50,335 nt of DNA from UHGV virus genome UHGV-1998140; one strand, written 5' to 3'. This DNA is from a virus. Below, piece after piece: positions 18,427 to 45,659 of this stretch (position 1 is its first letter; each line of letters starts with the position of its first letter). Position numbers and translations under genes: made by a program. The notes under the pieces are model-generated. The model had not been told where the DNA came from. It saw only the letters and a list, made by a program, of their open reading frames with translations, and made no database searches.

Positions 18427-19347
18427 TTACATTCTGGTTTGCAGGTCCATCGCTGCCGCCTGCAGCTTGATGGAACCGGCTTTTTGAGGCGTTTTGTACT
18501 TCGCCGCAATAGCATTGATCGCCGACTGAGGGTCTGAAACTTCATCGGCCAGACCGGCAGAAATAGCACTGGCACCGAAAAAAGTCCCTGCCTGTGTGCC
18601 AATAACGGCCTGTAAATCTAAATCTCGATATTCAGCAACCGAAGTCGTGAATGTCTGGTACATATCGTCAAGTATCTTGTCGTACATTGCGAGAGAGGCT
18701 TCACTCAGTGGCTCATGAGAAGTACCGTTATTTTTGTTATCTCCACGATACATGGAGGTAAATTTTACACCGATATTCTCTTCCATTTTCGATGTATCCA
18801 GGTGTTCCATTATCACCCCGATAGACCCCACGCCGCTGGTCTGGCTAATAACGATTTTATTGCAGGCAGAGGCAATAAAATAAGCCGCTGAAAACGCGTT
18901 GAAGTTAACAATCGCGGTAATGGATTTCGTCTCTCGCGACTGATAGATGTAATCTGCCAGTTCTTTACACCCGGAGGCGTAACCCCCACCGGAATTTATA
19001 TCCAGCACGATTTCGCTGATGGATGAATCGTTTAACGCCGCGTGCAACTGACTGCGAATACGCTCATAGCTGGTTAGCTCCGTACAGGCTTGCGTTATTT
19101 GTCCCCGACGCGGCACCAGTAATCCATGTACAGGAATAACAGCCACGCCACCGGCTGGCTGGACCTGCTCAGGAGTCGGGGTGCCATCCGGATTGAGTGC
19201 CATCGTGAAAACCGGGTCCGTCACTGTTCCCTGAATGCGCGGGAGCAACACGGCCTTTACGGCATCCATCGTTTGCTGCGTGACGTAATGCGGGACGCCA
19301 AACACTTGGGCGGTAAGATGCGGCAGATTTAGGTTTGTGATATTCAT
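18427..19347 (-). CDS. Prohead maturation protease (S49/ClpP-like)
   Basis: 306 aa between portal and capsid genes; serine-protease-like core. Confidence 0.8.
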   Translation of the reverse strand: MNITNLNLPHLTAQVFGVPHYVTQQTMDAVKAVLLPRIQGTVTDPVFTMALNPDGTPTPEQVQPAGGVAVIPVHGLLVPRRGQITQACTELTSYERIRSQLHAALNDSSISEIVLDINSGGGYASGCKELADYIYQSRETKSITAIVNFNAFSAAYFIASACNKIVISQTSGVGSIGVIMEHLDTSKMEENIGVKFTSMYRGDNKNNGTSHEPLSEASLAMYDKILDDMYQTFTTSVAEYRDLDLQAVIGTQAGTFFGASAISAGLADEVSDPQSAINAIAAKYKTPQKAGSIKLQAAAMDLQTRM

Positions 19348-19407: not shown

Positions 19408-19755
19408 TTATTCTATAGAGGTAGATTGTCGTCCTGTGAGAGTGAACTCTACATTCACATCGTCGAAGCCCCTCGAATCTTTCCTGGGATAGTCCATTTC
19501 TTTGCAAAACATTTTGAAGCCAAGCTGAGCAAAGTTTTTTTCCTGTTCTGCTGGAAAATATTCGGAGAAAGATACAGCAAGGCACTCGTGATTTTTGAAC
19601 TTCGTCCGCTCGACGGGCCATCCTACACTCTTGCAACGCCGGGTGAGATCTTCTTCATCGGCACCCAGCAGAAATACTCTAAATGCCACCTGGCTGTATG
19701 TTCTAATACTGCCAGTCGGCTTCATTGGCTGATTAGGATCATAATTTGAGAACAT
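19408..19755 (-). CDS. Hypothetical protein (moron between portal and protease)
   Basis: 115 aa, AT-richer than neighbours, own downstream terminator, no recognisable motif. Confidence 0.5.
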   Translation of the reverse strand: MFSNYDPNQPMKPTGSIRTYSQVAFRVFLLGADEEDLTRRCKSVGWPVERTKFKNHECLAVSFSEYFPAEQEKNFAQLGFKMFCKEMDYPRKDSRGFDDVNVEFTLTGRQSTSIE

Positions 19756-19847
19756 TTTTGCACCTGAAATGGCCTATGAATTATGCAGGTATATTATCAC
19801 TAAAATTGATGAAAGGGTGCCTGTAGCCAGCAAGACAACCACCTTAA

Positions 19848-21110
19848 TTAACGAGCCAGAATCGCTTCAATCTTAGCCAGTTGTTTTGCCGTCGGAATTT
19901 TATCGCCTGGCAGGATTTGATTGCTGTCGACCATGTTCAGTGGTGTCAGATATCTGTCCCCGCCCTCAATCGGCGGCAGGTTTTCCATGCGGCGAATATC
20001 GTTGGTCGATAACCAGCCCCACTGACGACCCAGCGCATATGACTCATAGCGCGATTTCTGGTCGCCACGCAGTAAGCCGGAAACGTTGAATTCGATATAC
20101 AAGTCGCGGCGTTCGCTGGCCAGCAATAAATCACGCTGCAGTGCCCCTTCATGGCGTTTCAGCCAGGCGAGGAGCGTATACATCACGAACTGCAGACCCT
20201 GATGCTCGATGTTGTTATTGGTCGCTTTCGCAAGCATTTGCACCATGTGTGGCGGGATTTTGTAGAGCCGACACACTTCCTCCACGCCCCACTGGCGCGA
20301 TTGCAGCAGCTGTGCTTTCTCGTTGTCCTGCGACATCTGCTTGTAGCTCATTCCTTCTTGCAGCAGCGCCACAGAAAAGGCATTACGCATACCAGAATAT
20401 CGGTCAGTCCATTTAGCCAGTAGCTGGTCTATCTTCTCCTGGCTCTTGATTGCCGGGGCGGCCTGTGGACGCTCGATAACGCCGCTCATCGTTGTTCCGC
20501 GCCGGAATGTGGCAGATGCATGCTCCTCCACTGCCAGATTCAGCCCGAGTACATCTGCGTTCGTCTGAATCGGTGAACTGCCGATATAGCCATCCAGAGA
20601 AAAGACTTTCACATGGTGCACCATGCGCATCGGTAACGTTTCACCGATGTCCGGGATTTCATAATAGGGCATCCCGTCCGGGCCTTTCAGAACAATGACC
20701 TTTTTCGGGTTAATTGGGATGAGTTCTTTTGGGTAGCCTCTACCGTCACGGTCGATGATCGAGTAGCAATTGCCCTCCAGCCCCAGCAACCCCTGCTGCT
20801 GCTCAAAGTACTCAAATGAAGTGTCTTTTTTGTTTGGCTGAGAATGAATCAGGTCATAAATCGGGTGGTCTGTCGCACGTTGCCGCCCACCATTTTTATC
20901 TCGTCGATAGAGTTCGACAGGCAGCTGCGCGACGGACTCCGCCAGGAGGGTTACGCACGCACGAACAGCAGAAAGTGCAAGCGCCGTTTCCGGCGTAATC
21001 ATGACACCGGCTTTACTGTGACTTGAACGGACACCACCCAGCATTGCTTCCCAGAATCCGCCACCTGATACCGACCGCTTTTTACCTTCAAACATCTGGG
21101 GAATAAACAT
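19848..21110 (-). CDS. Portal protein, HK97 family
   Basis: 420 aa directly downstream of terminase large subunit. Confidence 0.9.
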   Translation of the reverse strand: MFIPQMFEGKKRSVSGGGFWEAMLGGVRSSHSKAGVMITPETALALSAVRACVTLLAESVAQLPVELYRRDKNGGRQRATDHPIYDLIHSQPNKKDTSFEYFEQQQGLLGLEGNCYSIIDRDGRGYPKELIPINPKKVIVLKGPDGMPYYEIPDIGETLPMRMVHHVKVFSLDGYIGSSPIQTNADVLGLNLAVEEHASATFRRGTTMSGVIERPQAAPAIKSQEKIDQLLAKWTDRYSGMRNAFSVALLQEGMSYKQMSQDNEKAQLLQSRQWGVEEVCRLYKIPPHMVQMLAKATNNNIEHQGLQFVMYTLLAWLKRHEGALQRDLLLASERRDLYIEFNVSGLLRGDQKSRYESYALGRQWGWLSTNDIRRMENLPPIEGGDRYLTPLNMVDSNQILPGDKIPTAKQLAKIEAILAR

Positions 21111-21289
21111 TATTTCTCCCCGCTATTTTTTGCGCTGGCGGATACCGAGCGCGCGATTAAAAAAGACCAAAGCAGACAGAGTATTCCGCCTGTGATAAAC
21201 CCCGCTGCAGGTAATAAAAGCCAGGCTCCGGTAGAAACCAATAAAGCCCCGGCAAGGCCAATAATGAAACTCAGAATTGTGATTAGCAC
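21110..21289 (-). CDS. Small membrane protein (59 aa, 2 predicted TM helices)
   Basis: GTG start at 21289 with GAGGAAG upstream, overlaps terL stop; its TAA overlaps the portal ATG (TAATG); not in ORF track because <60 aa. Confidence 0.45.
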   Translation of the reverse strand: MLITILSFIIGLAGALLVSTGAWLLLPAAGFITGGILCLLWSFLIARSVSASAKNSGEK

Positions 21290-23004
21290 GCTACGTCTTC
21301 CTCATCATAGATAGATTTGATGACTGCGCTGTTCAACATGGCGCGCCCTATCCCCATCATTAAACCAACCGCACCATCAATCTTGTTTTGTTTCCCCTCC
21401 TTTGTCGGACGGACAATATCGTCGCTGCCCGGCAAATACCGACCTACAACGTTCTGGATGCACCAGTTCATGATGGGATTTCCGTCATGATGGAATCGCC
21501 CCGACGCCAGTGCAGCTTCAATCTCTCTCATGGGGTCGCTCATATGGGTGAAGTTCTGTCTGATTTCGACGGGTTCCAGTCCCTCTTCCTCAAGCAGATG
21601 GCGCAAGGAAGTGGCACCATAAGGATCGATAGGACACTGGGCGATTTTCACGTTCTGACGTAACTGCAGGATGGATTCGAAAATCAGCCGATAATCTACT
21701 TCTGCGCCCTCAGTTGGAATTAAAACGCCCTGTCCCACAAAGGACTGATAACGTTCAGAGGTATGCTTAAGCTTCGGGTCGACAGAATAGATGGTGTCTT
21801 CAGGCACCCAGAACATAGGGCCTACGCAGTAGAAATGGGTAATACCTTCTATATCGCGACGAAAAACAGGAATAACGGCGTTAAGATCGACCTTTGACGC
21901 TAGATCTATTCCCAGCCAGCATTCCTCATCGGCAAAATCAGACAATTTCAGACTCTTGTCAGCAGCAGCCATCCATTTCTGTAAATCGTAAAAGACTGTT
22001 TTTGCGCTAACCCAACGATTAAAATGCTTGGTCAGGATCTTGTTGGTCTGACTGGGGTTCGATATCGCCAGTAACTGTTTTGCGCGAAGAAAGTGCTCTT
22101 TTACCGATATCCCATAATTGGGATTGGCTTTAATGAGCGCTTCCGGCTGAGTCCAGTCATCATCATCATCCAGACCATAGATGATGCCGAAAATGCCCTC
22201 ATTCTCTTCCCCATTGCGGGTTTTGCGCAGGATCTCCACCACCTGTTCCCGCTTCTCATAGCACGGCGATGTAATGTCATAACCGGCTGTCGTGATGATG
22301 AGCGTAATGGGTTGCTCGCGAGCCCCCATCCCTGTCGTCATCGTGGTATACAGGGCATCGGTAATATGTTCGTGGTATTCGTCGATAATGGCGCATGACG
22401 GCGAATCACCGTCACCGGGATCGCCAATCACGGGTGCAAATATGGAGCCATCCGGGCGAGTCATTTTTTTTGCCCAGGGCTTTATAGAAAATTTCTGCCG
22501 CAATGCGGGCAGCTTTTTCACCATCAACAACGCCGGAGCAAACACTTTCCAGGCCTGCTTTTCGGTCGTGGCGCCGCAGTACACTTCCGCACCATGTTCA
22601 CCGTCAGCGCAGAACATATAATTGCCAACGGCAGCGGCAATTGCTGATTTGCCGTTCTTTCTAGGAACTTCGATATAGATCTCAGTGAACCGCCGCAGGC
22701 CACTTTTTTTATTTACCCAGCCAAACGGAACACCCAGGGCAAACTTTTGCCAGGGTTCAAATTCTATCCTGAGTTTTCGGCGGGCCCATTCCCCTGCGGT
22801 ATGTGGCATTTTTTGTGCAAAACGAAGAAATCGCTCTGCCTTATTTTTATCGAACCGGTAAGGCCAGTTCGGATCCTTCGCGCGTTCCAGGTCATCAAGA
22901 TGTCGCTTGCAGGCAAGAATAGTTAACTGACATGCCAGAATCTTCCCGCCAACGATATCCCGTGCATACTGGTTCGCCGCATTGACGTTCGGATATGTGG
23001 CCAT
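21283..23004 (-). CDS. Terminase large subunit
   Basis: 573 aa, Walker A-like PRKNGKS, start overlaps small-subunit stop. Confidence 0.9.
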   Translation of the reverse strand: MATYPNVNAANQYARDIVGGKILACQLTILACKRHLDDLERAKDPNWPYRFDKNKAERFLRFAQKMPHTAGEWARRKLRIEFEPWQKFALGVPFGWVNKKSGLRRFTEIYIEVPRKNGKSAIAAAVGNYMFCADGEHGAEVYCGATTEKQAWKVFAPALLMVKKLPALRQKFSIKPWAKKMTRPDGSIFAPVIGDPGDGDSPSCAIIDEYHEHITDALYTTMTTGMGAREQPITLIITTAGYDITSPCYEKREQVVEILRKTRNGEENEGIFGIIYGLDDDDDWTQPEALIKANPNYGISVKEHFLRAKQLLAISNPSQTNKILTKHFNRWVSAKTVFYDLQKWMAAADKSLKLSDFADEECWLGIDLASKVDLNAVIPVFRRDIEGITHFYCVGPMFWVPEDTIYSVDPKLKHTSERYQSFVGQGVLIPTEGAEVDYRLIFESILQLRQNVKIAQCPIDPYGATSLRHLLEEEGLEPVEIRQNFTHMSDPMREIEAALASGRFHHDGNPIMNWCIQNVVGRYLPGSDDIVRPTKEGKQNKIDGAVGLMMGIGRAMLNSAVIKSIYDEEDVAC

Positions 23005-23438
23005 CAGTCAAACTCATCAAATTCATTCCCGTCATCGTCCTGATCATTTTTGCCGCTGGTCATTCGGATACGGCTGAGCGGATCTAACCCCAGTAGCGAG
23101 CCCAGACGGGCTATCTGGGAAACAGAGTCATTTCTGACGTTTACGGCAGGATGTTTTTTTAACCCTCCCATTTCGCTTTCAGTTGTCAGCCCGTTAGCCA
23201 GTAATTTTTCGGCTTCGAGCATCAGATGGAAGGCGTTGCAGTAAGCCAGAAGTAAAGGGGCATCTTCAAGCTCAAAAACGCCTCTTTCGATCAGGATTTT
23301 ACTTTGAGTCTTCCATATTCTTATAGCCGCCTCCCCCATCAACTCAGCCGGGGGCGCGATTCGGGTCAGTTTACTTTTTTGCCCGGTGGGTAAAACGGGT
23401 TTTCTTCCCCCTCCAGACGATCTAATACCAGCAGCCAT
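23004..23438 (-). CDS. Terminase small subunit (P27-like)
   Basis: 144 aa with acidic C-terminal tail, strong RBS, immediately upstream of terL. Confidence 0.7.
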   Translation of the reverse strand: MAAGIRSSGGGRKPVLPTGQKSKLTRIAPPAELMGEAAIRIWKTQSKILIERGVFELEDAPLLLAYCNAFHLMLEAEKLLANGLTTESEMGGLKKHPAVNVRNDSVSQIARLGSLLGLDPLSRIRMTSGKNDQDDDGNEFDEFD

Positions 23439-23575
23439 AACTCCTCTTTTGATAGGTGAAACCTGCCGGAAAAAAGATCCTTATTTCTGGCGTGTAAAAA
23501 TGTCCTTCAAGCGGCAGTCCCAAAGCGCGAAAGGGGTCAGGGATTTGATCCCCCCTACCCCTGGCGGCAGCTGCC

Positions 23576-23776
23576 TCAGTCGAGGTGGAAGTCGTCATTC
23601 AGGTTGCGCCGACGACCGCTGCTCGCGTTGTGTGGGCAGGCACTCGAGTTATGCCCGGACTGACCGCAATAACTGCAGCGCAAATTGGCGCGACGTGAGG
23701 AACCACCCCACGTTTTCGGGCAGTTCGCGTATGTATGAAGCTGTGAACCGCAATAAGTACAGCGGGTATAACCCAT
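23576..23776 (-). CDS. Small protein with two CCHC zinc-knuckle motifs
   Basis: Two CX2CX4HX4C motifs (CTYCGSQLHTYANC and CSYCGQSGHNSSAC); start placed at third ATG, 4 nt after GGAGGG. Confidence 0.5.
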   Translation of the reverse strand: MGYTRCTYCGSQLHTYANCPKTWGGSSRRANLRCSYCGQSGHNSSACPHNASSGRRRNLNDDFHLD

Positions 23777-23806: not shown

Positions 23807-24247
23807 TCAGGTTTCAGTTGGTGCCGGTGCAACGCCACCATCAGCCTGCAGCACACTTTCCGGCAAACGCTCAATCAGCGGGGCATTCTCAAATACTTTG
23901 AGACCGTACTGGCCAACCCAAGTGCTTTCCTGCCCAACGCTGCCAGAGATGAAGTCCATCACTTCTGCCAACAGCTCTTTAACCAGAGCCTCCGTACGCG
24001 TCCGCCAGTGGCCTTCAATGGCGACCAGGAGAGGATCTGAACCGTTGGCAATACTTTGCTTGCCTACCGAGTAGGTTTTCTTTTTCGCCTTATCGGTCAC
24101 ACACTGCAGCTGTGTCATCAGGGCCAGAACAGCAATCGGAGTTGTATCGCGGACTTCGATAGTCATCGTGGCCAGCTTGTTACCCGATTCAGCATCAGTG
24201 GATGATGCGTAGTACATTGAAATGGTTAAATCATCACGACTGAACAT
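23807..24247 (-). CDS. Hypothetical protein
   Basis: 146-aa ORF in the HNH-terminase cluster, no recognisable motif. Confidence 0.45.
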   Translation of the reverse strand: MFSRDDLTISMYYASSTDAESGNKLATMTIEVRDTTPIAVLALMTQLQCVTDKAKKKTYSVGKQSIANGSDPLLVAIEGHWRTRTEALVKELLAEVMDFISGSVGQESTWVGQYGLKVFENAPLIERLPESVLQADGGVAPAPTET

Positions 24248-24249
24248 GA

Positions 24250-24546
24250 TTAATGGCTCCGGTTACGGTTGCGATTTTTATTGCGGTTACGCTGATGGCG
24301 CGGTGCGGTTTCGGCTGGCAGGTGCTCGCCTTCGAACGCTTGCGCTGGCTCTTGCGGTTGCGGTTGCGGTTGAGCGGGAACCAGTCCCTCGGGAATTTCA
24401 CCACCTACCTCAAACTTGAGATGCGGTTCTTTCCCCAAGAAATGGCTGAAGTTCAGGCCCGATAGTCCTGCATTGAGCATCGAGATCCCCTCGACATCAA
24501 CGGTAACGAGTTGGCCATCAACGTATTCAATTTTTAAATTCTTCAT
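24250..24546 (-). CDS. Hypothetical protein with PQ repeat and basic C-terminal tail
   Basis: ATG at 24546 overlaps HNH stop (ATGA); contains (GCGGTT)3 hexamer repeat encoding PQPQPQ and a C-terminal RNRNKNRNRNR tail. Confidence 0.5.
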   Translation of the reverse strand: MKNLKIEYVDGQLVTVDVEGISMLNAGLSGLNFSHFLGKEPHLKFEVGGEIPEGLVPAQPQPQPQEPAQAFEGEHLPAETAPRHQRNRNKNRNRNRSH

Positions 24547-24905
24547 CGTGTTCTCTCTGTTGCGGTTTTCGTTCTGTGGCACGGCCAGCACAACGATTCC
24601 AGATTGTAATTGTCATCAGTACCGCCGTGGGCTTTAGGAATGATGTGGTCGACGCTGGTAGCTTTTGTGGCGATACCGTGGCGTCGGCAGTTCTGGCAAA
24701 GGTATTTGTCGCGCACGAGTATCTGGGCACGAATGATTTCCCAGGAACGACCGTATCCGCGTTGCTGTCGGGTTTTTCCGGTCTGATAGTTACGCCAGCC
24801 ATCGCCAGTGTGTTGCTGCCGATGGATCTCGCAGTATCTAGTGGCGTCATTCGTCACTGCCGCGCATCCTCTGTGCCGGCAAGGTCGTTTAGCTCGTGGT
24901 GGCAT
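24543..24905 (-). CDS. HNH endonuclease (terminase-associated, HK97 gp74-like position)
   Basis: Cys/His HNH core (DHIIPKAHGG ... CWPCH); start placed at ATG 24905 (MPPRAKRPC) with GAGGA upstream. Confidence 0.8.
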   Translation of the reverse strand: MPPRAKRPCRHRGCAAVTNDATRYCEIHRQQHTGDGWRNYQTGKTRQQRGYGRSWEIIRAQILVRDKYLCQNCRRHGIATKATSVDHIIPKAHGGTDDNYNLESLCWPCHRTKTATERTR

Positions 24906-25053
24906 ACACATCCTCAAGCATGAATTTGGAGAGAGTAAAAGCGGCACTGTCGATGGGGAACTCTGAAACTGGCAACGATGCGAATGACAAATCGTCATAC
25001 GAAATCACCACCAGCTTCCCTCCTACGTATTCAATTTTTAAGCTCTTCATCAT
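24889..25053 (-). CDS. Small ORF, N-terminal paralog of 24250-24546 product
   Basis: 54 aa MMKSLKIEYVGGKLVV... shares its first ~22 residues with MKNLKIEYVDGQLVTV...; weak RBS. Confidence 0.35.
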   Translation of the reverse strand: MMKSLKIEYVGGKLVVISYDDLSFASLPVSEFPIDSAAFTLSKFMLEDVYATTS

Positions 25054-25224
25054 GTGGCATCACGAATACAAAAAGCCCCGCAGATGCGAGGCTACTGGTT
25101 ATACATCAGGGTGTTATTGATAGAGAGCAGCGTGTAAGGTTATCGCTCAGCCGCCTGTGGTGGGACACAGGTAGATATTGTAATTGCAGAGGGATAGCTG
25201 ATTAGCTCTGCTTAAGGAATAGAA

Positions 25225-25425
25225 ATGATTAAAAAGAATATGCACCTTCAAATGGAATCAAATGCCCAAACAATCGACGAATTGAACAAAGAAATTGGGC
25301 AACTGAAATGTGTCGTTGGTTTCTTAATGACTCAATTACCACCGCAATCTAGGCAGGCTGTCATCAATAATCTTGAGGAGTTTGGACTTGATGAGTCAGT
25401 TAAGGAATTTACTCAGTTCCTTTGA
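25225..25425 (+). CDS. Hypothetical small protein
   Basis: 66 aa, AAGGAA RBS 6 nt upstream of ATG, low-GC region. Confidence 0.45.
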   Translation: MIKKNMHLQMESNAQTIDELNKEIGQLKCVVGFLMTQLPPQSRQAVINNLEEFGLDESVKEFTQFL

Positions 25426-25809
25426 ACAAGGCTTGACCTAATAAATTAATGTACCAGCCTTGAGAATTTTTGGGTTGTGTCCCAGGCGAAGTAGTGGACT
25501 CGCTTCCTTCGCCTGAAACATTTTTTGGGTTTGAAGTTTTGACGTTCAACGTTTTCAAGTTATTCCTCCTTATTACGATCCCCGCTAAGTGATACAGACA
25601 GATTTATCCCTTGGTAGGGATAGATGTTCTCACCGATTCGTAAATCCGCTCACAGGTCATTCCTGCTTTGTAGCGTTCGTCTGCAATTGCAGCATACGCC
25701 ACGGGGATTAACTACTTATGTCTAACAATCGACAGTCTCATTGTTACAGCCATTAAAAAAACCACCCATGTGGAGTGCCCCCCGAAATGTGGCCTATCTG
25801 ATCGCTATG

Positions 25810-25941
25810 AAAAAGGCCGCAAAAGAGATGCGGCCTTTTGTCATGCACAGTTATCGATTAAATAAACTCTCAGGAGCCATCCGGGAGAGCATCACTTAAA
25901 CGGGTAACTGACCTCCGACAGACTGGTGTTGGGACGGAGGT
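25810..25941 (-). repeat. Structured element copy A (terminator hairpin + conserved box + second hairpin)
   Basis: GGCCGCA/TGCGGCC hairpin with flanking A/T tracts, box CTCTCAGGAGCCATCCGGGAGAG, hairpin ACCTCCG/CGGAGGT with GGTGTTG in loop. Confidence 0.45.
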
Positions 25942-26283
25942 GCAATGAGAGTAGTGTGTTTCATTTTTTTTCATACCAGCAAACACAAAATAATGGCAGT
26001 TCTTCCTGTTAATCGATAACTGCTATTCAATTAGTCTGGCCAGACGGATGATTATCCTGCCAGGAGTTATCACACTCACACAATGAAAATCTTTAAAAAA
26101 AATCCTTAGCCGGTTCACTCGCCTTCGAACAGGTGCAATGACCTTGCTCTGACGAAATTAGCTTTAATCGTTCGTTGCCATCTTCCGTACAAACAAAATA
26201 GTCACAAAAAAATAAAGGTTAAAAAGTGAGCTATTTACTGTCCTGTGGTGTATGGTTAGCAATCACTCACGAGGATAAAAACC

Positions 26284-26454
26284 ATGGCGATGCTCAAAGA
26301 CAAGATACGTACACTCAGACCTGTAAAAAGCACCTGTCCTCACTGCTCTCGCCAGTCAACACATAGCCTGTCGAGAATAAAAAACGATATAACATTGATC
26401 TGCCCATACTGCGGAAATATTTTCCTCCCCTCAGAAAGTAAACCTGTTAAGTAA
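26284..26454 (+). CDS. Small zinc-ribbon protein (56 aa)
   Basis: ATG with GAGGA 8 nt upstream; two CxxC pairs (CPHC ... CPYC); not in ORF track because <60 aa. Confidence 0.5.
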   Translation: MAMLKDKIRTLRPVKSTCPHCSRQSTHSLSRIKNDITLICPYCGNIFLPSESKPVK

Positions 26455-26697
26455 CTGATCGAATACTTTACTGAAGCTGAAGTCCACTCTCAGGCTTCAG
26501 TAAACGAAACGACTTAGCAATCAGCGTCAGGACGCGCTACAGCCTGTATCCAGCAGACCGCAAAAATAACGGCTCACTCCTTTCAGGCGATTCATTCGCT
26601 CAAAATCACCAGGAGTTAACATGCTTCTTCTCCTGCTTCTGATAATCAAAAAACCGCAAATGCGAGGTTTATTTGGTAAATATTGGTTTACCTGAAC

Positions 26698-26967
26698 CTA
26701 GGAATAATAGGCTGCGAAATGCTCCTCAACCTGCGCCCTTGTGTCTGCGCTCTCGTTTAATGTCAATGAGTCATAACCCTTAATGTGAAAAACAGGTTCA
26801 TATGCATAAACAGTAATCAATGCGTAAATTGCATTGTCAGTACCAGAAAAAATCTCATATTTCACACGCGACAGGCGCTTATGTTCATTAACTAACATGT
26901 ATGTTTCGATAAGCTTATGAGTAACCACGTTTTTTCCTTCATGACAAAAAAATCCCCTTTTAACCAT
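26698..26967 (-). CDS. Hypothetical protein
   Basis: 89-aa ORF in low-GC island; no convincing RBS. Confidence 0.35.
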   Translation of the reverse strand: MVKRGFFCHEGKNVVTHKLIETYMLVNEHKRLSRVKYEIFSGTDNAIYALITVYAYEPVFHIKGYDSLTLNESADTRAQVEEHFAAYYS

Positions 26968-27110
26968 ACGCGTTAGGAGCTAAGAATTGAAATTATTAGC
27001 ATTATCGAAGCCACTCGGCAGAATGGTCTCTGTGATGCATTTGCATTTGCATTTATCTTTGCCATGCGTACAAGCAAAATGGTGGCCTTACGGATGCCTG
27101 TTACGCACAA

Positions 27111-27241
27111 TAAAAAAGGCCGCAAAAAAATGCGACCTTTGGTTAGTACCAGTTAGAAAACTAAAATCTCTCAGGAGCCACCCGGGAGAGGCTTTTCTGT
27201 TTTTTAACTGACCACTGCCGTTTCGGTGTTGACTGGCAGTG
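27111..27241 (-). repeat. Structured element copy B (paralog of copy A)
   Basis: Same architecture as copy A; second hairpin stem changed to CACTGCC/GGCAGTG with GGTGTTG kept in loop; first hairpin has C-A mismatch on plus strand that is G-U on minus strand. Confidence 0.45.
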
Positions 27242-27412
27242 ATAACGTGATGATAGCTTCATTTAAGTTATCGATATCATTTAAATATCTAAAGAACTAT
27301 TTAAACCAATAATTCTCAACTCGCCGGAACATTCAACCATAGAAACAGGTTTCTATGCTGGTCTTTTGATGGTAAGCATCAATTCACCACAACCAGCTTA
27401 GTTGCTAATAAA

Positions 27413-27625
27413 TTATTCGGGGGTACCTTCAACGTTGAACCATAGATCTAAATGTTTAATGTAGCGCTGGATGGACACACAAATAACCACTCCATCTTTA
27501 AGGTTAACAGACTTAATAACACATCCTTTCGGTGCAAAATACTCCCCATCATAATGGGGGCGAATGGAATGCTCGTCTCCGTAACGATAACCGTGCGGAA
27601 GTTGAGGGAGTGAATTTCTTGTCAT
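27413..27625 (-). CDS. Hypothetical protein
   Basis: 70-aa ORF downstream of lysis cassette, weak RBS. Confidence 0.4.
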   Translation of the reverse strand: MTRNSLPQLPHGYRYGDEHSIRPHYDGEYFAPKGCVIKSVNLKDGVVICVSIQRYIKHLDLWFNVEGTPE

Positions 27626-27792
27626 GGGCAGCTTCTTAGATAAAAGGAATTTGAAAATCCATAGTGCATTAGCAACCTTGACTTAGATACCAACTTTTCA
27701 TTGTTTACTGCTCTAATATCTCGTTTTCAGATTTTTTGTTCATACGATGATTTAAATATCAATACCTTAAGCGTGCGACATTTATATCTGAT

Positions 27793-28023
27793 TTATCTTG
27801 CTCCCTTCTCTGTAAGCTGCGGGCAGTTGGCCTGCACGGATTTGTTGTACGCCAAGATGTCGCGCTTCGTCTGCTTATCCAGCACGTCAATATCGCGGTC
27901 AGTGAGATAGATAATTTTCGCCCACAGGCACCCTGTATCAACGACCACCGGGGCGGGTGAATTGCTCGCGCAGCTCACGATCAACATCGTCATCAGGCAT
28001 ATGGCTAACAGTCTGCTGTACAT
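27793..28023 (-). CDS. o-spanin (Rz1-like outer-membrane lipoprotein)
   Basis: Start at internal ATG (MYSRLLAICLMTMLIVSCAS) giving a lipoprotein signal with lipobox Cys; overlaps the i-spanin gene out of frame. Confidence 0.6.
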   Translation of the reverse strand: MYSRLLAICLMTMLIVSCASNSPAPVVVDTGCLWAKIIYLTDRDIDVLDKQTKRDILAYNKSVQANCPQLTEKGAR

Positions 28024-28216
28024 CACTGGCCTCCCTGGTGGCTTCCTCTTTCCGTTCTGCCGCAGCGACTCTGGCGGCGGCATCCTCTTCTGTACGTTTC
28101 TTCTCAGATTCCGCTACGGCTTTTTCACGACCGCTCATTCTGCCCAAACCAAATACACCCATGAGCAGAAGAACTGCCGCAGTGAGAAATGCCAGAATGG
28201 CTTTAATTTGCGTCAT
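27938..28216 (-). CDS. i-spanin (Rz-like)
   Basis: 92 aa, N-terminal TM helix then charged coiled-coil; directly downstream of endolysin. Confidence 0.6.
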   Translation of the reverse strand: MTQIKAILAFLTAAVLLLMGVFGLGRMSGREKAVAESEKKRTEEDAAARVAAAERKEEATREASDVQQTVSHMPDDDVDRELREQFTRPGGR

Positions 28217-28755
28217 AGCTTCACTCGCTCTTTCACCCAGCCATAAACGAACGACTCATTAGCCGAGCGCTGTTCAGCCAGTTCAAGATACCTTTGGCCC
28301 TGGCTGCAATTGAGAGCGCGCAGCAGCACTTCTTCACCTTCCTTACCCCGGGTATTCAGATAGGATTTCAAAGCATTGATGCTACGGGGTCCAATCTGCC
28401 CGTCAGCAATAAGATCTGGATAAAGTTTCTGTTGATTGTTGAAAACGTTCAGCCAGCGCTGGAACCATTTCACCTGAACAGATGGCCCCATATTTACGCC
28501 TGTATCGCACAACTCTGCCGCAATTGATGGAGAAACTGTCGCAACCAGGTCAAAGCGCGGCCCATACCAGTAATCGGCTGAAAGGATATCCAGAGCCTGC
28601 TGACGAGTCAGATCACGCATATCGCCTGAATAACCATGGGCACGGGCAACGGCCTGAGTAATCCCCCAGTTAGTTGGACCACCCTTGTCGTTTGGATTGT
28701 TAACATAGCCACCCTCTTTACCGAGGATGCTGTTGAAAATATCTTCTTTAGTCAT
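28213..28755 (-). CDS. Endolysin (GH108-like muramidase with peptidoglycan-binding region)
   Basis: 180 aa, N-terminus ILGKEGGYVNNPNDKGGPTNWGIT typical of GH108 lysozymes; flanked by holin and spanin genes. Confidence 0.75.
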   Translation of the reverse strand: MTKEDIFNSILGKEGGYVNNPNDKGGPTNWGITQAVARAHGYSGDMRDLTRQQALDILSADYWYGPRFDLVATVSPSIAAELCDTGVNMGPSVQVKWFQRWLNVFNNQQKLYPDLIADGQIGPRSINALKSYLNTRGKEGEEVLLRALNCSQGQRYLELAEQRSANESFVYGWVKERVKL

Positions 28756-44477: not shown

Positions 44478-45659
44478 ATGGCAGCAAGGCCAAGAAAAAG
44501 GGAATACCGCCATCTACCTGATTATCTAATATTTGATAAAGATCGCGGCGTTTATAAATTCACCTTAATTACAGGGAAGAAAAAGAACATTGGGAAAGAT
44601 CGGGCTATAGCCATCGCTATTGCGCGCGAATACAACCTCAGAATGCGGCAGGCAAATGCTCCGTCAGTTGAATTGCTTATCCGTGATTCTGGCGGCGTGT
44701 CGGGTGAAGCTAAACCTTTTGCCGAGCATGTTGATCACATCATGGCGCGTGCGATTGAAAATGAACGTCCGTCGCAAAATACGCTTGATGACTGGAACAA
44801 CGACGCACTAAGGGTGAAGGAATTCTTTAGCAACATACCAGCTTGCGATATTGAGCTGGAGCATGTGAACGCCTACATAAAGCATTACCACTCAGATTCA
44901 TCAGCGAACGTACAAAACCGGAAGGTCAGCTTCCTTAAAAAATTGTTCTCGTATGCGGTCGATGAATCATTGATGTTTGATAATCCTGCTACACGCAAAA
45001 AAATGCGAAGAACCGAAGAGAAGAAACGCCAGCGTCTTTCACTCGATAACTTTAAAGCCATTCGTCGGGCCGCCGAACCCTGGTTACGCACCGCGATGGA
45101 TTTAGCATTACAGACGACGCACGCTCGCCTTGAAGTGTCTAGGATTCGGTATTCAATTCGTGAACCTAAGAACGGTATTTGTGGTTGTGTATGGCTCGAA
45201 CAGCCAGAAGATGGCATATATGGAACGCTTTACATCCATCGTCAAAAGGTACAAAAGAAGGAAGCATCGCACGTTGCGATTCCAATTGGGGATGAGCTAA
45301 AGCGCATAATTGATGAAAGTAGGGATAACGTAGCTAGTCCGTTTGTTGTTCATCGGATTCCGGAGCGACAGGTTAAACGCAGTAAAGAAGTTTCACACCC
45401 AACTCAAGTTGCGCCTGACTATCTTAGTCGCTCGTTCTCCTCGTTACGCGATGAGCTAGGGCTTTGTGATCATCTTGCGATGGACGAACGCCCTACATTT
45501 CACGAGATCAGAGCCCTTGCAGCACATTTGTTTAATAGCCAAGGAATCGATCCTCAAGGCAGAATGGCTCACAGTGATGCAAAATCAACAAAGATTTATA
45601 CTCAAAACCACATTGATTGGATCGTCGTTCCACACGGGGAAATTAAATACAATGCATAA
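44478..45659 (+). CDS. int: Tyrosine integrase
   Basis: 393 aa, Arg-rich N-terminal arm-binding region, C-terminal catalytic region; 1.6 kb from the tRNA-derived att core. Confidence 0.9.
   Translation: MAARPRKREYRHLPDYLIFDKDRGVYKFTLITGKKKNIGKDRAIAIAIAREYNLRMRQANAPSVELLIRDSGGVSGEAKPFAEHVDHIMARAIENERPSQNTLDDWNNDALRVKEFFSNIPACDIELEHVNAYIKHYHSDSSANVQNRKVSFLKKLFSYAVDESLMFDNPATRKKMRRTEEKKRQRLSLDNFKAIRRAAEPWLRTAMDLALQTTHARLEVSRIRYSIREPKNGICGCVWLEQPEDGIYGTLYIHRQKVQKKEASHVAIPIGDELKRIIDESRDNVASPFVVHRIPERQVKRSKEVSHPTQVAPDYLSRSFSSLRDELGLCDHLAMDERPTFHEIRALAAHLFNSQGIDPQGRMAHSDAKSTKIYTQNHIDWIVVPHGEIKYNA

What the first reader, a model, noticed from the sequence alone, without database searches (positions are those of the whole stretch)
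21110..21289. Unannotated 59-aa membrane protein coupled between terL and portal
A GTG-initiated ORF with GAGGAAG RBS overlaps the terL stop, and its stop overlaps the portal ATG. The product has two hydrophobic helices. It is absent from the ORF track and easily missed by annotation.
Basis: seen in the sequence. Interest (0 to 1): 0.4.

Follow-up and report, generated by a model that had tools for sequence, protein, structure and literature searches.

The report
Known small phage membrane gene (YmfR family)
The 59-codon reading frame between the phage DNA-packaging enzyme gene and the portal gene is a real, conserved gene for a tiny two-helix membrane protein, but it belongs to a long-annotated family (E. 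coli YmfR, phiKO2 gp3, PHROG 502) whose function nobody has established.

Summary
A GTG-started 59-aa ORF sits on the minus strand at 21110-21289. Its start overlaps the terL stop (GTGCTAA) and its stop overlaps the portal ATG (TAATG). A GAGGAAG Shine-Dalgarno-like site lies 7 nt upstream.

It is a genuine gene. dN/dS is 0.10-0.33. It matches PHROG 502 full-length (E 8.6e-18). Profile search finds 879 representative clusters, 49-122 aa among the best 150. The terL-small-portal order holds in alpha-, beta- and gammaproteobacterial (pro)phages. In 79 of 85 distinct loci the stop overlaps the portal ATG.

The product is predicted to be an N-in/C-in helical hairpin. Its conserved motif is G-x2-G...G-A-W-L-x2-P-A-G-F-I-x-G-G, centred on the predicted periplasmic turn.

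It is not new. The identical protein is in NCBI as a K. oxytoca hypothetical protein. Homologues were annotated long ago: phiKO2 gp3, phiP27 L37, ST64B Sb3, E. coli e14 YmfR. Some phage records do omit it.

I found no published function. It is not lambda gpW, and not the holin, because a full lysis cassette lies elsewhere. It does not look like a moron.

My best guess, inferred only, is a late-expressed inner-membrane accessory of portal/procapsid assembly or packaging. Interest is low.

The parts
21110..21289 (-). 59-codon gene (GTG start, TAA stop included) for a two-helix membrane protein of the YmfR / PHROG 502 family
   Evidence: ORF listed and sequence read. PHROG 502 E 8.6e-18. Identical NCBI protein P0001. 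dN/dS 0.10-0.33.
21297..21303 (-). Shine-Dalgarno-like GAGGAAG, 7 nt upstream of the GTG, inside the last codons of terL
   Evidence: Read. An SD-like match of at least 4 nt precedes the small-gene start in 49 of 85 distinct loci.
21283..21289 (-). GTGCTAA: the small-gene start overlaps the terL stop by 7 nt
   Evidence: The same -7 arrangement occurs in 33 of 85 distinct loci, and an overlap of 1-7 nt in 58 of 85.
21221..21286 (-). Codons 2-23: predicted transmembrane helix 1, carrying conserved G11, G14 and G21
   Evidence: AlphaFold2 helix 2-23, hydropathy, column conservation.
21185..21229 (-). Codons 21-35: family signature G-A-W-L-x2-P-A-A-G-F-I-x-G-G around the predicted periplasmic turn; the most conserved part of the protein
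   Evidence: Alignments. Per-column information over 144 representatives: G21 0.99, W23 0.88, G30 0.94, G35 1.00.
21152..21211 (-). Codons 27-46: predicted transmembrane helix 2, followed by R47 and a 13-residue polar tail
   Evidence: AlphaFold2 helix 27-56, hydropathy, K/R distribution.
21116..21121 (-). GGGGAG, the Shine-Dalgarno site of the portal gene, embedded in the last codons (S-G-E-K) of the small gene
   Evidence: Read. G and E dominate the last four residues across the family, which fits a dual coding/SD constraint (inference).
21108..21112 (-). TAATG: the small-gene stop overlaps the portal start by 1 nt
   Evidence: The same 1-nt overlap occurs in 79 of 85 distinct loci.
21283..23004 (-). 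Large terminase subunit gene (573 aa)
   Evidence: PF03354 E 4e-30 and PF20441 E 8e-34.
19848..21110 (-). HK97-family portal gene (420 aa)
   Evidence: PF04860 E 1e-102.
23004..23438 (-). P27-family small terminase subunit gene (context)
   Evidence: PF05119 E 3.7e-17.
18427..19347 (-). S49 prohead protease gene (context)
   Evidence: PF01343 E 6.6e-31.

Best explanation
**Shown (probability about 0.95).** This is a real protein-coding gene of a prophage in a Klebsiella oxytoca-type chromosome. It belongs to the known YmfR / phiKO2 gp3 / phiP27 L37 / PHROG 502 family. It encodes a 59-aa helical hairpin predicted to sit in the inner membrane with both ends in the cytoplasm. Its reading frame is interlocked with terL upstream and the portal gene downstream, leaving no room for its own promoter. 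Its translation is therefore most likely coupled terL -> small protein -> portal in the late operon.

**Inferred (probability about 0.35, the figure given as confidence).** The protein is an accessory of the head/packaging module, not a cargo gene. It would be made in portal-like low amounts and insert into the inner membrane. There it would give portal or procapsid initiation, or the packaging complex, a membrane-bound site. This is functionally like the T4 gp40-assisted, membrane-attached gp20 portal initiator. It could act through its short cytoplasmic tail, or simply by drawing the coupled mRNA-ribosome complex to the membrane. The glycine faces and the conserved G-A-W-L...P-A-G-F turn would serve self-association or contact with a host membrane partner.
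For: **Gene reality**
- Full-length PHROG 502 match.
- Identical protein in NCBI.
- 879 representative clusters at E <= 1e-3; the best 150 listed are 49-122 aa.
- dN/dS 0.10-0.33, with dS similar to the neighbouring genes.
- No other frame is consistently open.

**Linkage to the head module**
- terL-small-portal order holds in nearly all of 87 phage/viral loci.
- It also holds in most of 37 genomic loci from Alpha-, Beta- and Gammaproteobacteria, where terL is only 22-38% and portal 30-55% identical to the reference proteins used as queries.
- The stop/ATG overlap with portal occurs in 79 of 85 distinct loci. Overlap with the terL stop, or a gap of at most 14 nt, occurs in 80 of 85.
- Mosaic breakpoints fall just upstream of the small gene. 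The phiKO2 match starts about 20 nt before the GTG, and the F1055 match ends at the end of terL.
- Small-protein identity tracks the portal N-terminus slightly better than the terL C-terminus (Spearman 0.64 vs 0.58).
- A Reyranella locus keeps small+portal+protease with no terL upstream.

**Against a cargo gene**
- No promoter-like site nearby.
- GC content like the neighbours.
- Not among the nine phage proteins detected in a lysogen of the related phage NAR688 (PMC12042878).
- e14 ymfR rises with the other e14 genes listed (log2FC 4.5; PMC10012262).

**Topology and precedent**
- K+R per protein: 1.85 at the N-terminus, 0.15 in the loop, 2.23 at the C-terminus.
- AlphaFold2 predicts a hairpin.
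- T4 precedent for a membrane-attached portal initiator: PMC9958956.
Against: - No experiment addresses this family. I found no functional paper.
- The most conserved residues lie in the membrane and at the periplasmic turn. The cytoplasmic tails, where portal and terminase are, are less conserved. In this protein the N-tail is absent and the C-tail is only 13 residues.
- HK97 itself, as far as I recall, has no such gene, so it cannot be essential to HK97-type assembly in general.
- None of the best 150 family members is fused to portal or terL.
- The correlation favouring portal over terL is weak, and the pairs are not independent.
- The negative lysogen proteome result is weak evidence, because small hydrophobic proteins are hard to detect by mass spectrometry.
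Confidence: 0.35

Rival explanations
1. Host-membrane modulator or superinfection-exclusion protein. The hairpin would bind or block a host inner-membrane protein, for example the DNA-entry route used by related phages or a membrane-bound defence effector. It would not act on the phage's own assembly. Functional analogues are HK97 gp15 and T4 Imm.
For: - The strongest conservation is within the bilayer and at the periplasmic turn, which is where a host membrane partner would be contacted.
- PHROGs files family 502 under 'moron, auxiliary metabolic gene and host takeover'.
- In these searches the family was found almost only in Proteobacteria.
- It evolves 3-8 times faster than its neighbours, as conflict genes often do.
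Against: - Classic exclusion morons have their own promoter and terminator, odd composition and patchy distribution.
- Here there is no intergenic space and no promoter-like site.
- GC content matches the neighbours.
- The position is fixed across deep divergence.
- It was not detected in a lysogen proteome of a related phage.
- There is no PADLOC match, though that library holds host defence systems rather than phage exclusion genes.
- dN/dS is well below 1.
Confidence: 0.2
2. Lysis-timing or pore-forming protein. This would be a holin/antiholin-like or viroporin-like hairpin whose glycine-zipper helices oligomerise and alter membrane potential late in infection.
For: - Size, two transmembrane helices and Gly-rich small-xxx-small faces resemble class II holins and pinholins (resemblance from general knowledge).
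- Two of 63 family members give sub-threshold hits to Pfam Phage_holin_10 (E 0.003).
Against: - The prophage has a complete lysis cassette elsewhere: two holin-family genes, an endolysin and an Rz-like spanin at 27793-29412.
- The gene never sits next to an endolysin in the loci examined.
- No holin PHROG is matched at E <= 1.
- Depolarising the membrane while ATP-dependent packaging is under way would be counter-productive (inference).
Confidence: 0.08
3. Virion-associated protein. The hydrophobic hairpin would be packaged at or near the portal and released on infection to help DNA cross the inner membrane.
For: - Position next to portal and portal-like expected dosage.
- Hydrophobic helices could insert into the target cell's membrane (inference).
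Against: - No solved phage structure contains a homologue by sequence or by fold.
- Positive-inside topology and the absence of any soluble domain argue for insertion in the producer cell's membrane.
- I found no virion proteomics report of it.
Confidence: 0.05
4. Lambda gpW-type head-tail joining (head completion) protein, as some automated annotations of homologues state ('head-tail joining protein W' in vB_EcoM-606R7, Salmonella phage As1 and others).
For: It has the same position as lambda W (between the large terminase and portal genes) and a similar size. The label appears in four records.
Against: - No Pfam match of any kind, including the gpW family, for this protein or 63 relatives.
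- gpW is a soluble protein, whereas this one is almost entirely hydrophobic (GRAVY 1.35).
Confidence: 0.01
5. Not a functional protein. The ORF would be a chance open frame, or a spacer whose only role is to pass ribosomes from terL to portal.
For: Short ORFs are common by chance, and both overlaps suggest a coupling role.
Against: - The peptide sequence itself is conserved. G14, G21 and G35 are invariant or nearly so, and W23 and G30 are 88-94% conserved, over 144 representatives spanning three proteobacterial classes.
- dN/dS is 0.10-0.33.
- A mere spacer would not keep a motif at 30-45% overall identity.
Confidence: 0.02

Closest known systems
E. coli e14 prophage YmfR, phiP27 L37, ST64B Sb3, Shigella SfI/SfII 'membrane protein' (PHROG 502)
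   Same: - Homologous: tblastn 44% identity over 57 of 59 residues, and the same PHROG.
- Same size (about 60 aa), same two-helix layout and same G-A-W-L...P-A-G-F motif.
- Same slot between terL and an HK97-type portal.
- e14 gene order oweE-aaaE-ymfR-beeE.
   Different: - The start is an ATG 8-14 nt after the terL stop, rather than a GTG overlapping it.
- These phages pair the gene with a different prohead protease and capsid set.
- Function is equally unknown.
Klebsiella phage phiKO2 gp3 ('membrane protein', YP_006583.1) and the telomere-phage group (KpLi5_03, NAR688, 48ST307)
   Same: - 92% identical (phiKO2) or 75% identical (KpLi5 group).
- The same GTG start overlapping the terL stop and the same TAATG junction with portal.
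- The portal is 88-95% identical.
   Different: The terL upstream is only 57% identical, so a recombination joint lies about 20 nt before the small gene. Those phages are linear plasmid prophages, whereas this copy lies in an integrated prophage with an integrase at 44478-45659.
T4 gp40, the membrane chaperone of the gp20 portal initiator
   Same: This is a proposed functional analogy only: a phage-encoded membrane protein that helps the portal start procapsid assembly at the inner membrane (PMC9958956).
   Different: - No sequence relationship: no other PHROG is matched apart from a marginal hit to phrog_7105, an unannotated family.
- gp40 is not encoded next to the portal gene (my recollection).
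- Any role of the present protein in assembly is untested.
Lambda gpW (head completion protein encoded between A and B)
   Same: Same gene position and a similar length. Some pipelines transfer this name to homologues.
   Different: Not homologous. gpW is soluble, whereas this protein is a membrane hairpin.
Small two-helix phage membrane proteins such as class II holins/pinholins, and exclusion proteins (T4 Imm, HK97 gp15)
   Same: Size, two hydrophobic helices and Gly-rich helix faces.
   Different: - It lies in the head/packaging operon rather than the lysis cassette, which exists separately at 27793-29412.
- It is not an autonomous moron.
- It matches no holin or defence profile.

Membership tests
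YmfR / PHROG 502 small phage membrane protein | Significant full-length match to the family profile | tested here: met
   phrog_502 E 8.6e-18, residues 1-53 on profile positions 3-55 of 58. A profile built from relatives retrieves 879 clusters.
YmfR / PHROG 502 small phage membrane protein | About 50-70 residues forming two hydrophobic helices joined by a short turn, with the signature G-x2-G ... G-A-W-L-x2-P-x-A-G-[FY]-I-x-G-G | tested here: met
   All signature residues are present: G11, G14, G21, A22, W23, L24, P27, A29, G30, F31, I32, G34, G35. Hairpin model.
YmfR / PHROG 502 small phage membrane protein | Encoded between the large terminase gene and an HK97-type portal gene, stop overlapping the portal start | tested here: met
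   Window. Family: 79 of 85 distinct loci. PGAP labels the E. coli copy ymfR between 'terminase large subunit' and 'phage portal protein'.
YmfR / PHROG 502 small phage membrane protein | Actual location in the inner membrane | not testable with these tools
   Prediction only: GRAVY 1.35 and positive-inside K/R distribution.
Lambda gpW head-tail joining protein (Pfam gpW family) | Sequence match to the gpW family | tested here: not met
   No Pfam family at E <= 0.01 for the protein and none related to gpW among 63 relatives.
Holins | Encoded in the lysis cassette next to an endolysin | tested here: not met
   Lysis cassette at 27793-29412 with two holin-family genes, an endolysin and a spanin. 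The small gene lies 6.5 kb away in the head operon.
Holins | Match to a described holin family | tested here: not met
   No holin PHROG at E <= 1. Only 2 of 63 relatives give sub-threshold Phage_holin_10 hits.
Holins | Lethal, timed hole formation in the membrane | not testable with these tools
   Needs expression experiments.
Morons / superinfection-exclusion genes (HK97 gp15, T4 Imm type) | Autonomous expression unit (own promoter and terminator) and atypical composition | tested here: not met
   Both ends overlap neighbouring genes. No promoter-like site within about 400 nt. GC 0.478 against 0.497 and 0.530 for the neighbours.
Morons / superinfection-exclusion genes (HK97 gp15, T4 Imm type) | Expressed from the repressed prophage | tested here: inconclusive
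   It is not among nine phage proteins detected in a NAR688 lysogen (PMC12042878), but small hydrophobic proteins are poorly detected. e14 ymfR rises with the other e14 genes listed (PMC10012262).
T4 gp40-type portal assembly chaperone | Sequence relationship to gp40 | tested here: not met
   The PHROG scan at E <= 1 returns only phrog_502 and a marginal phrog_7105.
T4 gp40-type portal assembly chaperone | Required for membrane-attached portal initiator formation | not testable with these tools
   Needs genetics and fractionation. The analogy rests on gene linkage only.

The most novel reading that the evidence does not exclude
The YmfR/PHROG 502 hairpin would be a conserved, so far unrecognised membrane component of head assembly or DNA packaging in a large branch of HK97-like phages of Proteobacteria. 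It would tie synthesis or oligomerisation of the portal (or docking of the terminase-procapsid complex) to the inner membrane. That step is so far documented only for T4 (gp40/gp20).
Probability: 0.25. Interest if true: 0.55.

Novelty: already known. Interest (0 to 1): 0.15.

Why it matters
The finding has little importance as a discovery. The gene, its family and even the identical protein are already in public databases.

It has modest practical value. The gene is skipped in some phage genome records and mislabelled 'head-tail joining protein W' in others, so annotation pipelines could call and name it consistently.

The open question is functional. A roughly 60-residue membrane hairpin has stayed locked between terL and portal across three proteobacterial classes, and is present in about a quarter of complete E. 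coli genomes (1386 of 5426). Yet I could find no published function. If it links portal assembly or packaging to the membrane, that would add a step to the textbook HK97-type assembly pathway.

Tried and rejected
**Database searches that found nothing**
- Pfam: no family for the protein. Among 63 relatives there were only scattered sub-threshold hits to generic membrane DUFs.
- NCBIfam: only a far sub-threshold hit (15.8 bits against a cut-off of 147).
- PADLOC: nothing.
- PDB by sequence profile: nothing meaningful (best E 0.14).
- Foldseek of the hairpin model against PDB: no match.
- Rfam on both strands of 20600-21800: nothing.

**Alternative reading frames**
- No other frame or strand is consistently open across 73 distinct gene sequences.

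**Literature**
- Searches on phiKO2 gene 3, ymfR, pKO2, small membrane protein + terminase + portal, phiP27/ST64B, and 'between the terminase' found no functional study. The hits were about holins or were simple gene lists.

**Technical dead ends**
A narrower alignment worked.
- Co-folding the small protein with portal could not be run.

**Readings considered and rejected**
- Independently exchanged 'allele cassette' between conserved neighbours: its dS matches the neighbours' and only dN is higher.
- Lambda gpW, holin and chance ORF: see rival explanations.

**Apparent exceptions to the gene order**
- L102 is a decayed head module: an S78 protease lies downstream and the portal is broken.
- L104 is a remnant of unclear context.
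Full report
**1. The observation**

On the minus strand the sequence reads ...GAT GAG GAA GAC GTA GCG TGC TAA for the end of terL (21283-23004, 573 aa). A GTG at 21289-21287 opens a 59-codon frame, so start and terL stop overlap as GTGCTAA. GAGGAAG (21303-21297) lies 7 nt upstream of the GTG.

The frame ends ...AGC GGG GAG AAA TAA. The last A of that stop is the A of the portal ATG (21110-21108; portal 19848-21110, 420 aa). GGGGAG (21121-21116), inside the last codons, is placed to serve as the portal's Shine-Dalgarno site.

The product is MLITILSFIIGLAGALLVSTGAWLLLPAAGFITGGILCLLWSFLIARSVSASAKNSGEK. It has GRAVY 1.35 and two hydrophobic stretches. AlphaFold2 on a 16-sequence alignment gives helix 2-23, a three-residue turn and helix 27-56, with mean pLDDT 74.

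The flanking genes are confirmed by Pfam:
- terS: PF05119.
- terL: PF03354 + PF20441.
- portal: PF04860.
- S49 protease.

PHROGs add a major head protein downstream and an HNH endonuclease upstream of terS.

**2. Is it more than a chance ORF?**

Length alone says nothing, since 67 ORFs of at least 30 aa overlap this 5.5-kb stretch. Conservation settles the question.

- tblastn against 50,697 phage records finds the same frame in 44 records, at the same place wherever the flanking genes were checked. These include Klebsiella phiKO2 (92% identity), the KpLi5/NAR688 telomere-phage group (75%), Yersinia PY54/YeP1, Marinobacter AS1, phiP27, ST64B, Shigella SfI/SfII/SfIV and Azospirillum phage Cd.
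- The protein matches PHROG 502 ('membrane protein') end to end at E 8.6e-18.
- A search of 5.8 billion proteins returns an identical 59-aa NCBI entry, 'hypothetical protein QY077_05695 [Klebsiella oxytoca]' (P0001).
- A profile of 16 relatives finds 879 clusters (50%-identity representatives) at E <= 1e-3. The best 150 listed are 49-122 aa, none is fused to a larger protein, and three are tandem duplications.
- Nei-Gojobori dN/dS against twelve relatives with unsaturated dS is 0.10-0.33. The same comparisons give 0.025-0.07 for portal and 0.02-0.09 for terL, with similar dS. The peptide is under purifying selection, but 3-8 times more relaxed than its neighbours.
- No other frame on either strand stays open across 73 distinct gene sequences.
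- No Rfam family matches the region.

**3. Gene arrangement across relatives**

In nearly all of 87 phage/viral loci the order is terL, small gene, portal. Among 85 distinct loci with all three genes:
- The small gene's stop overlaps the portal start by 1 nt (TAATG or TGATG) in 79.
- Its start overlaps the terL stop by 1-7 nt in 58.
- Its start lies 3-14 nt after the terL stop in 22.

A scan of 185,579 species genomes with a high-GC subfamily alignment found 37 loci:
- Alphaproteobacteria: Reyranella, Rhizobium, Shinella, Sulfitobacter, Roseobacter, Ahrensia, Ferrovibrio.
- Betaproteobacteria: Alcaligenaceae, Castellaniella.
- Gammaproteobacteria: Lysobacterales, Halopseudomonas, Mangrovibacter, Pseudaeromonas, E. 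coli, Shigella, Edwardsiella.

The order is kept even where terL is 22-38% and portal 30-55% identical to the reference proteins used as queries. The two apparent exceptions are a decayed head module and a remnant of unclear context. One Reyranella locus keeps small gene + portal + protease with no terL upstream.

Mosaic joints fall just upstream of the small gene. The phiKO2 nucleotide match to the window starts about 20 nt before the GTG. The Salmonella phage F1055 match ends at the end of terL. F1055 carries a different Gly-rich 52-aa two-helix ORF in the same slot, which aligns weakly but in register with the family profile.

Across 3,570 locus pairs, small-protein identity correlates a little better with the portal N-terminus (Spearman 0.64) than with the terL C-terminus (0.58). 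This is weak evidence, because the pairs are not independent.

**4. What the protein looks like**

Over 144 representatives the best conserved columns are:

| Residue | Conservation | Note |
|---|---|---|
| G11 | 0.86 | |
| G14 | 0.97 | |
| Y20 | 0.75 | T in this protein |
| G21 | 0.99 | |
| A22 | 0.78 | |
| W23 | 0.88 | |
| P28 | 0.76 | A in this protein |
| A29 | 0.76 | |
| G30 | 0.94 | |
| F31 | 0.68 | |
| I32 | 0.79 | |
| G35 | 1.00 | |
| R47 | 0.66 | |

Conservation thus centres on the glycine faces of both helices and on the aromatic/proline turn. K+R per protein is 1.85 before helix 1, 0.15 in the turn and 2.23 after helix 2. By the positive-inside rule both ends are cytoplasmic and the turn faces the periplasm.

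The C-terminal tail varies in sequence but is rich in G and E. I attribute this partly to the embedded portal Shine-Dalgarno site (inference).

**5. What it is not**

- **Lambda gpW.** Several records call homologues 'head-tail joining protein W'. No Pfam family matches, and the family profile does not recognise gpW.
- **The holin.** Two holin-family genes, an endolysin and an Rz-like spanin lie at 27793-29412.
- **A typical moron.**
  - There is no intergenic space, no promoter-like site, and GC matches the neighbours.
  - It was not among nine phage proteins detected in a lysogen of the related phage NAR688 (PMC12042878).
  - E. coli e14 ymfR rises together with the other e14 genes listed (log2FC 4.5 under LP-600; PMC10012262).
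- **A known defence or solved-structure protein.** There is no match in PADLOC, in PDB sequences or by fold.

**6. How it most likely works**

*Shown:*
- It is a conserved coding gene.
- It is interlocked with terL and portal.
- Its product is predicted to be an N-in/C-in membrane hairpin.

*Inferred:*
- It is translated by ribosomes passing from terL to portal, and therefore late and at portal-like low levels.
- I favour, at about 0.35, a role as a membrane-resident accessory of the head/packaging module.
- It would give portal or procapsid initiation, or the packaging complex, a site at the inner membrane.
- The only documented precedent is the T4 portal initiator, which is membrane-attached and depends on gp40 (PMC9958956).

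*The main weakness* is that the conserved residues lie in the bilayer and at the periplasmic turn rather than in the short cytoplasmic tails. That fits equally well a protein that self-associates, or one that contacts a host membrane protein. I therefore give about 0.2 to a host-membrane modulator or exclusion function. Smaller shares go to a lysis-timing pore (0.08) and a virion-borne protein (0.05). The remainder is 'something else'.

**7. Comparison with what is known, and novelty**

The gene is a member of an already annotated family:
- phiP27 L37, 'putative integral membrane protein'.
- ST64B Sb3.
- phiKO2 gp3, 'similar to bacteriophage phi27 gene'.
- E. coli e14 YmfR.

PGAP names the phiP27-type copy ymfR. 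DNA similar to the phiP27 junction region is found in 1386 of 5426 complete E. coli genomes, and the e14 gene order is oweE-aaaE-ymfR-beeE. All tested defining features of the family are met.

The finding is therefore already known as a gene. What remains unknown is its function, for which I found no study. ST846-OXA48phi9.1, 48ST307, PY54 and SfIV leave it uncalled, and at 59 aa it falls under a 60-aa ORF threshold.

**8. Verdict**

- Observation: confirmed.
- Interpretation: supported, apart from 'unannotated'.
- Novelty: already known.
- Interest: 0.15.
- Most novel reading still open: a conserved membrane step in HK97-type head assembly or packaging, probability about 0.25, interest if true about 0.55.

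Noticed in passing
window 24998-27793: About 2.8 kb of low GC (0.41-0.48) with no ORF of 90 aa or more. It lies between the HNH endonuclease/terS genes and the lysis cassette and holds only small ORFs of 45-89 aa on both strands. It looks like a cargo or moron stretch of the prophage.
   Followed up: partly
window 27793-29412 (minus strand): A complete lysis cassette: holin phrog_198 (29023-29412), a second holin-family gene phrog_217 (28755-29033), endolysin (28213-28755) and Rz-like spanin (27793-28083).
   Followed up: yes
window 24543-24998 (minus strand): An HNH endonuclease gene a short way upstream of terS, separated from it by two genes of unknown function (23807-24247 and 24250-24591). 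HNH endonucleases usually accompany HK97-type cos terminases.
   Followed up: partly
window 21170-21261 (minus strand): Six of the 14 terminator-like hits in 19500-23600 fall inside the 180-nt small gene, against 4.4 expected for the whole region. This is probably a by-product of T-rich codons for hydrophobic residues. An attenuating role ahead of portal was not tested.
   Followed up: no
window 21309 (joint), compared with phiKO2 (L001): A recombination joint. The small gene and portal are 92-95% identical to phiKO2, but terL is only 57% identical. The nucleotide match starts about 20 nt before the small gene's GTG.
   Followed up: yes
window 47678-50323: An 881-aa ORF on the minus strand in a stretch of GC 0.657, well above the rest of the window (0.41-0.57). 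It lies outside the prophage, beyond the integrase at 44478-45659.
   Followed up: no
L097 2498-4615 (Reyranella MAG): Small gene, portal and S78 prohead protease are present, but the upstream genes are Fic- and Usp-family genes on the other strand rather than a terminase. This is either a head module detached from terL or a remnant.
   Followed up: partly
L045 737-2990 (Arsenophonus viral contigs): terL is split into several fragments carrying PF03354 and two PF20441 pieces upstream of an intact small gene. These are decaying or duplicated terminase genes.
   Followed up: partly
P0068, P0146, P0155 (family representatives): Three proteins of 102-122 aa contain two tandem copies of the hairpin. 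They would form four-helix versions of the family.
   Followed up: no
OR844959.1 'Enterococcus phage Efm 3-10' (1764 nt) and L122 'Bacillota MAG': Both carry copies whose small protein matches the query exactly as the Salmonella ST64B/phiP27 copy does (OR844959.1) or is identical to E. coli copies (L122). The organism labels are probably contamination or mislabelling.
   Followed up: no
L088 1933-2091 (Salmonella phage F1055): A 52-aa Gly-rich two-helix ORF occupies the same terL-portal slot but is only marginally similar to the family (13.9 bits, aligned in register). The slot may host a wider superfamily of hairpins.
   Followed up: partly
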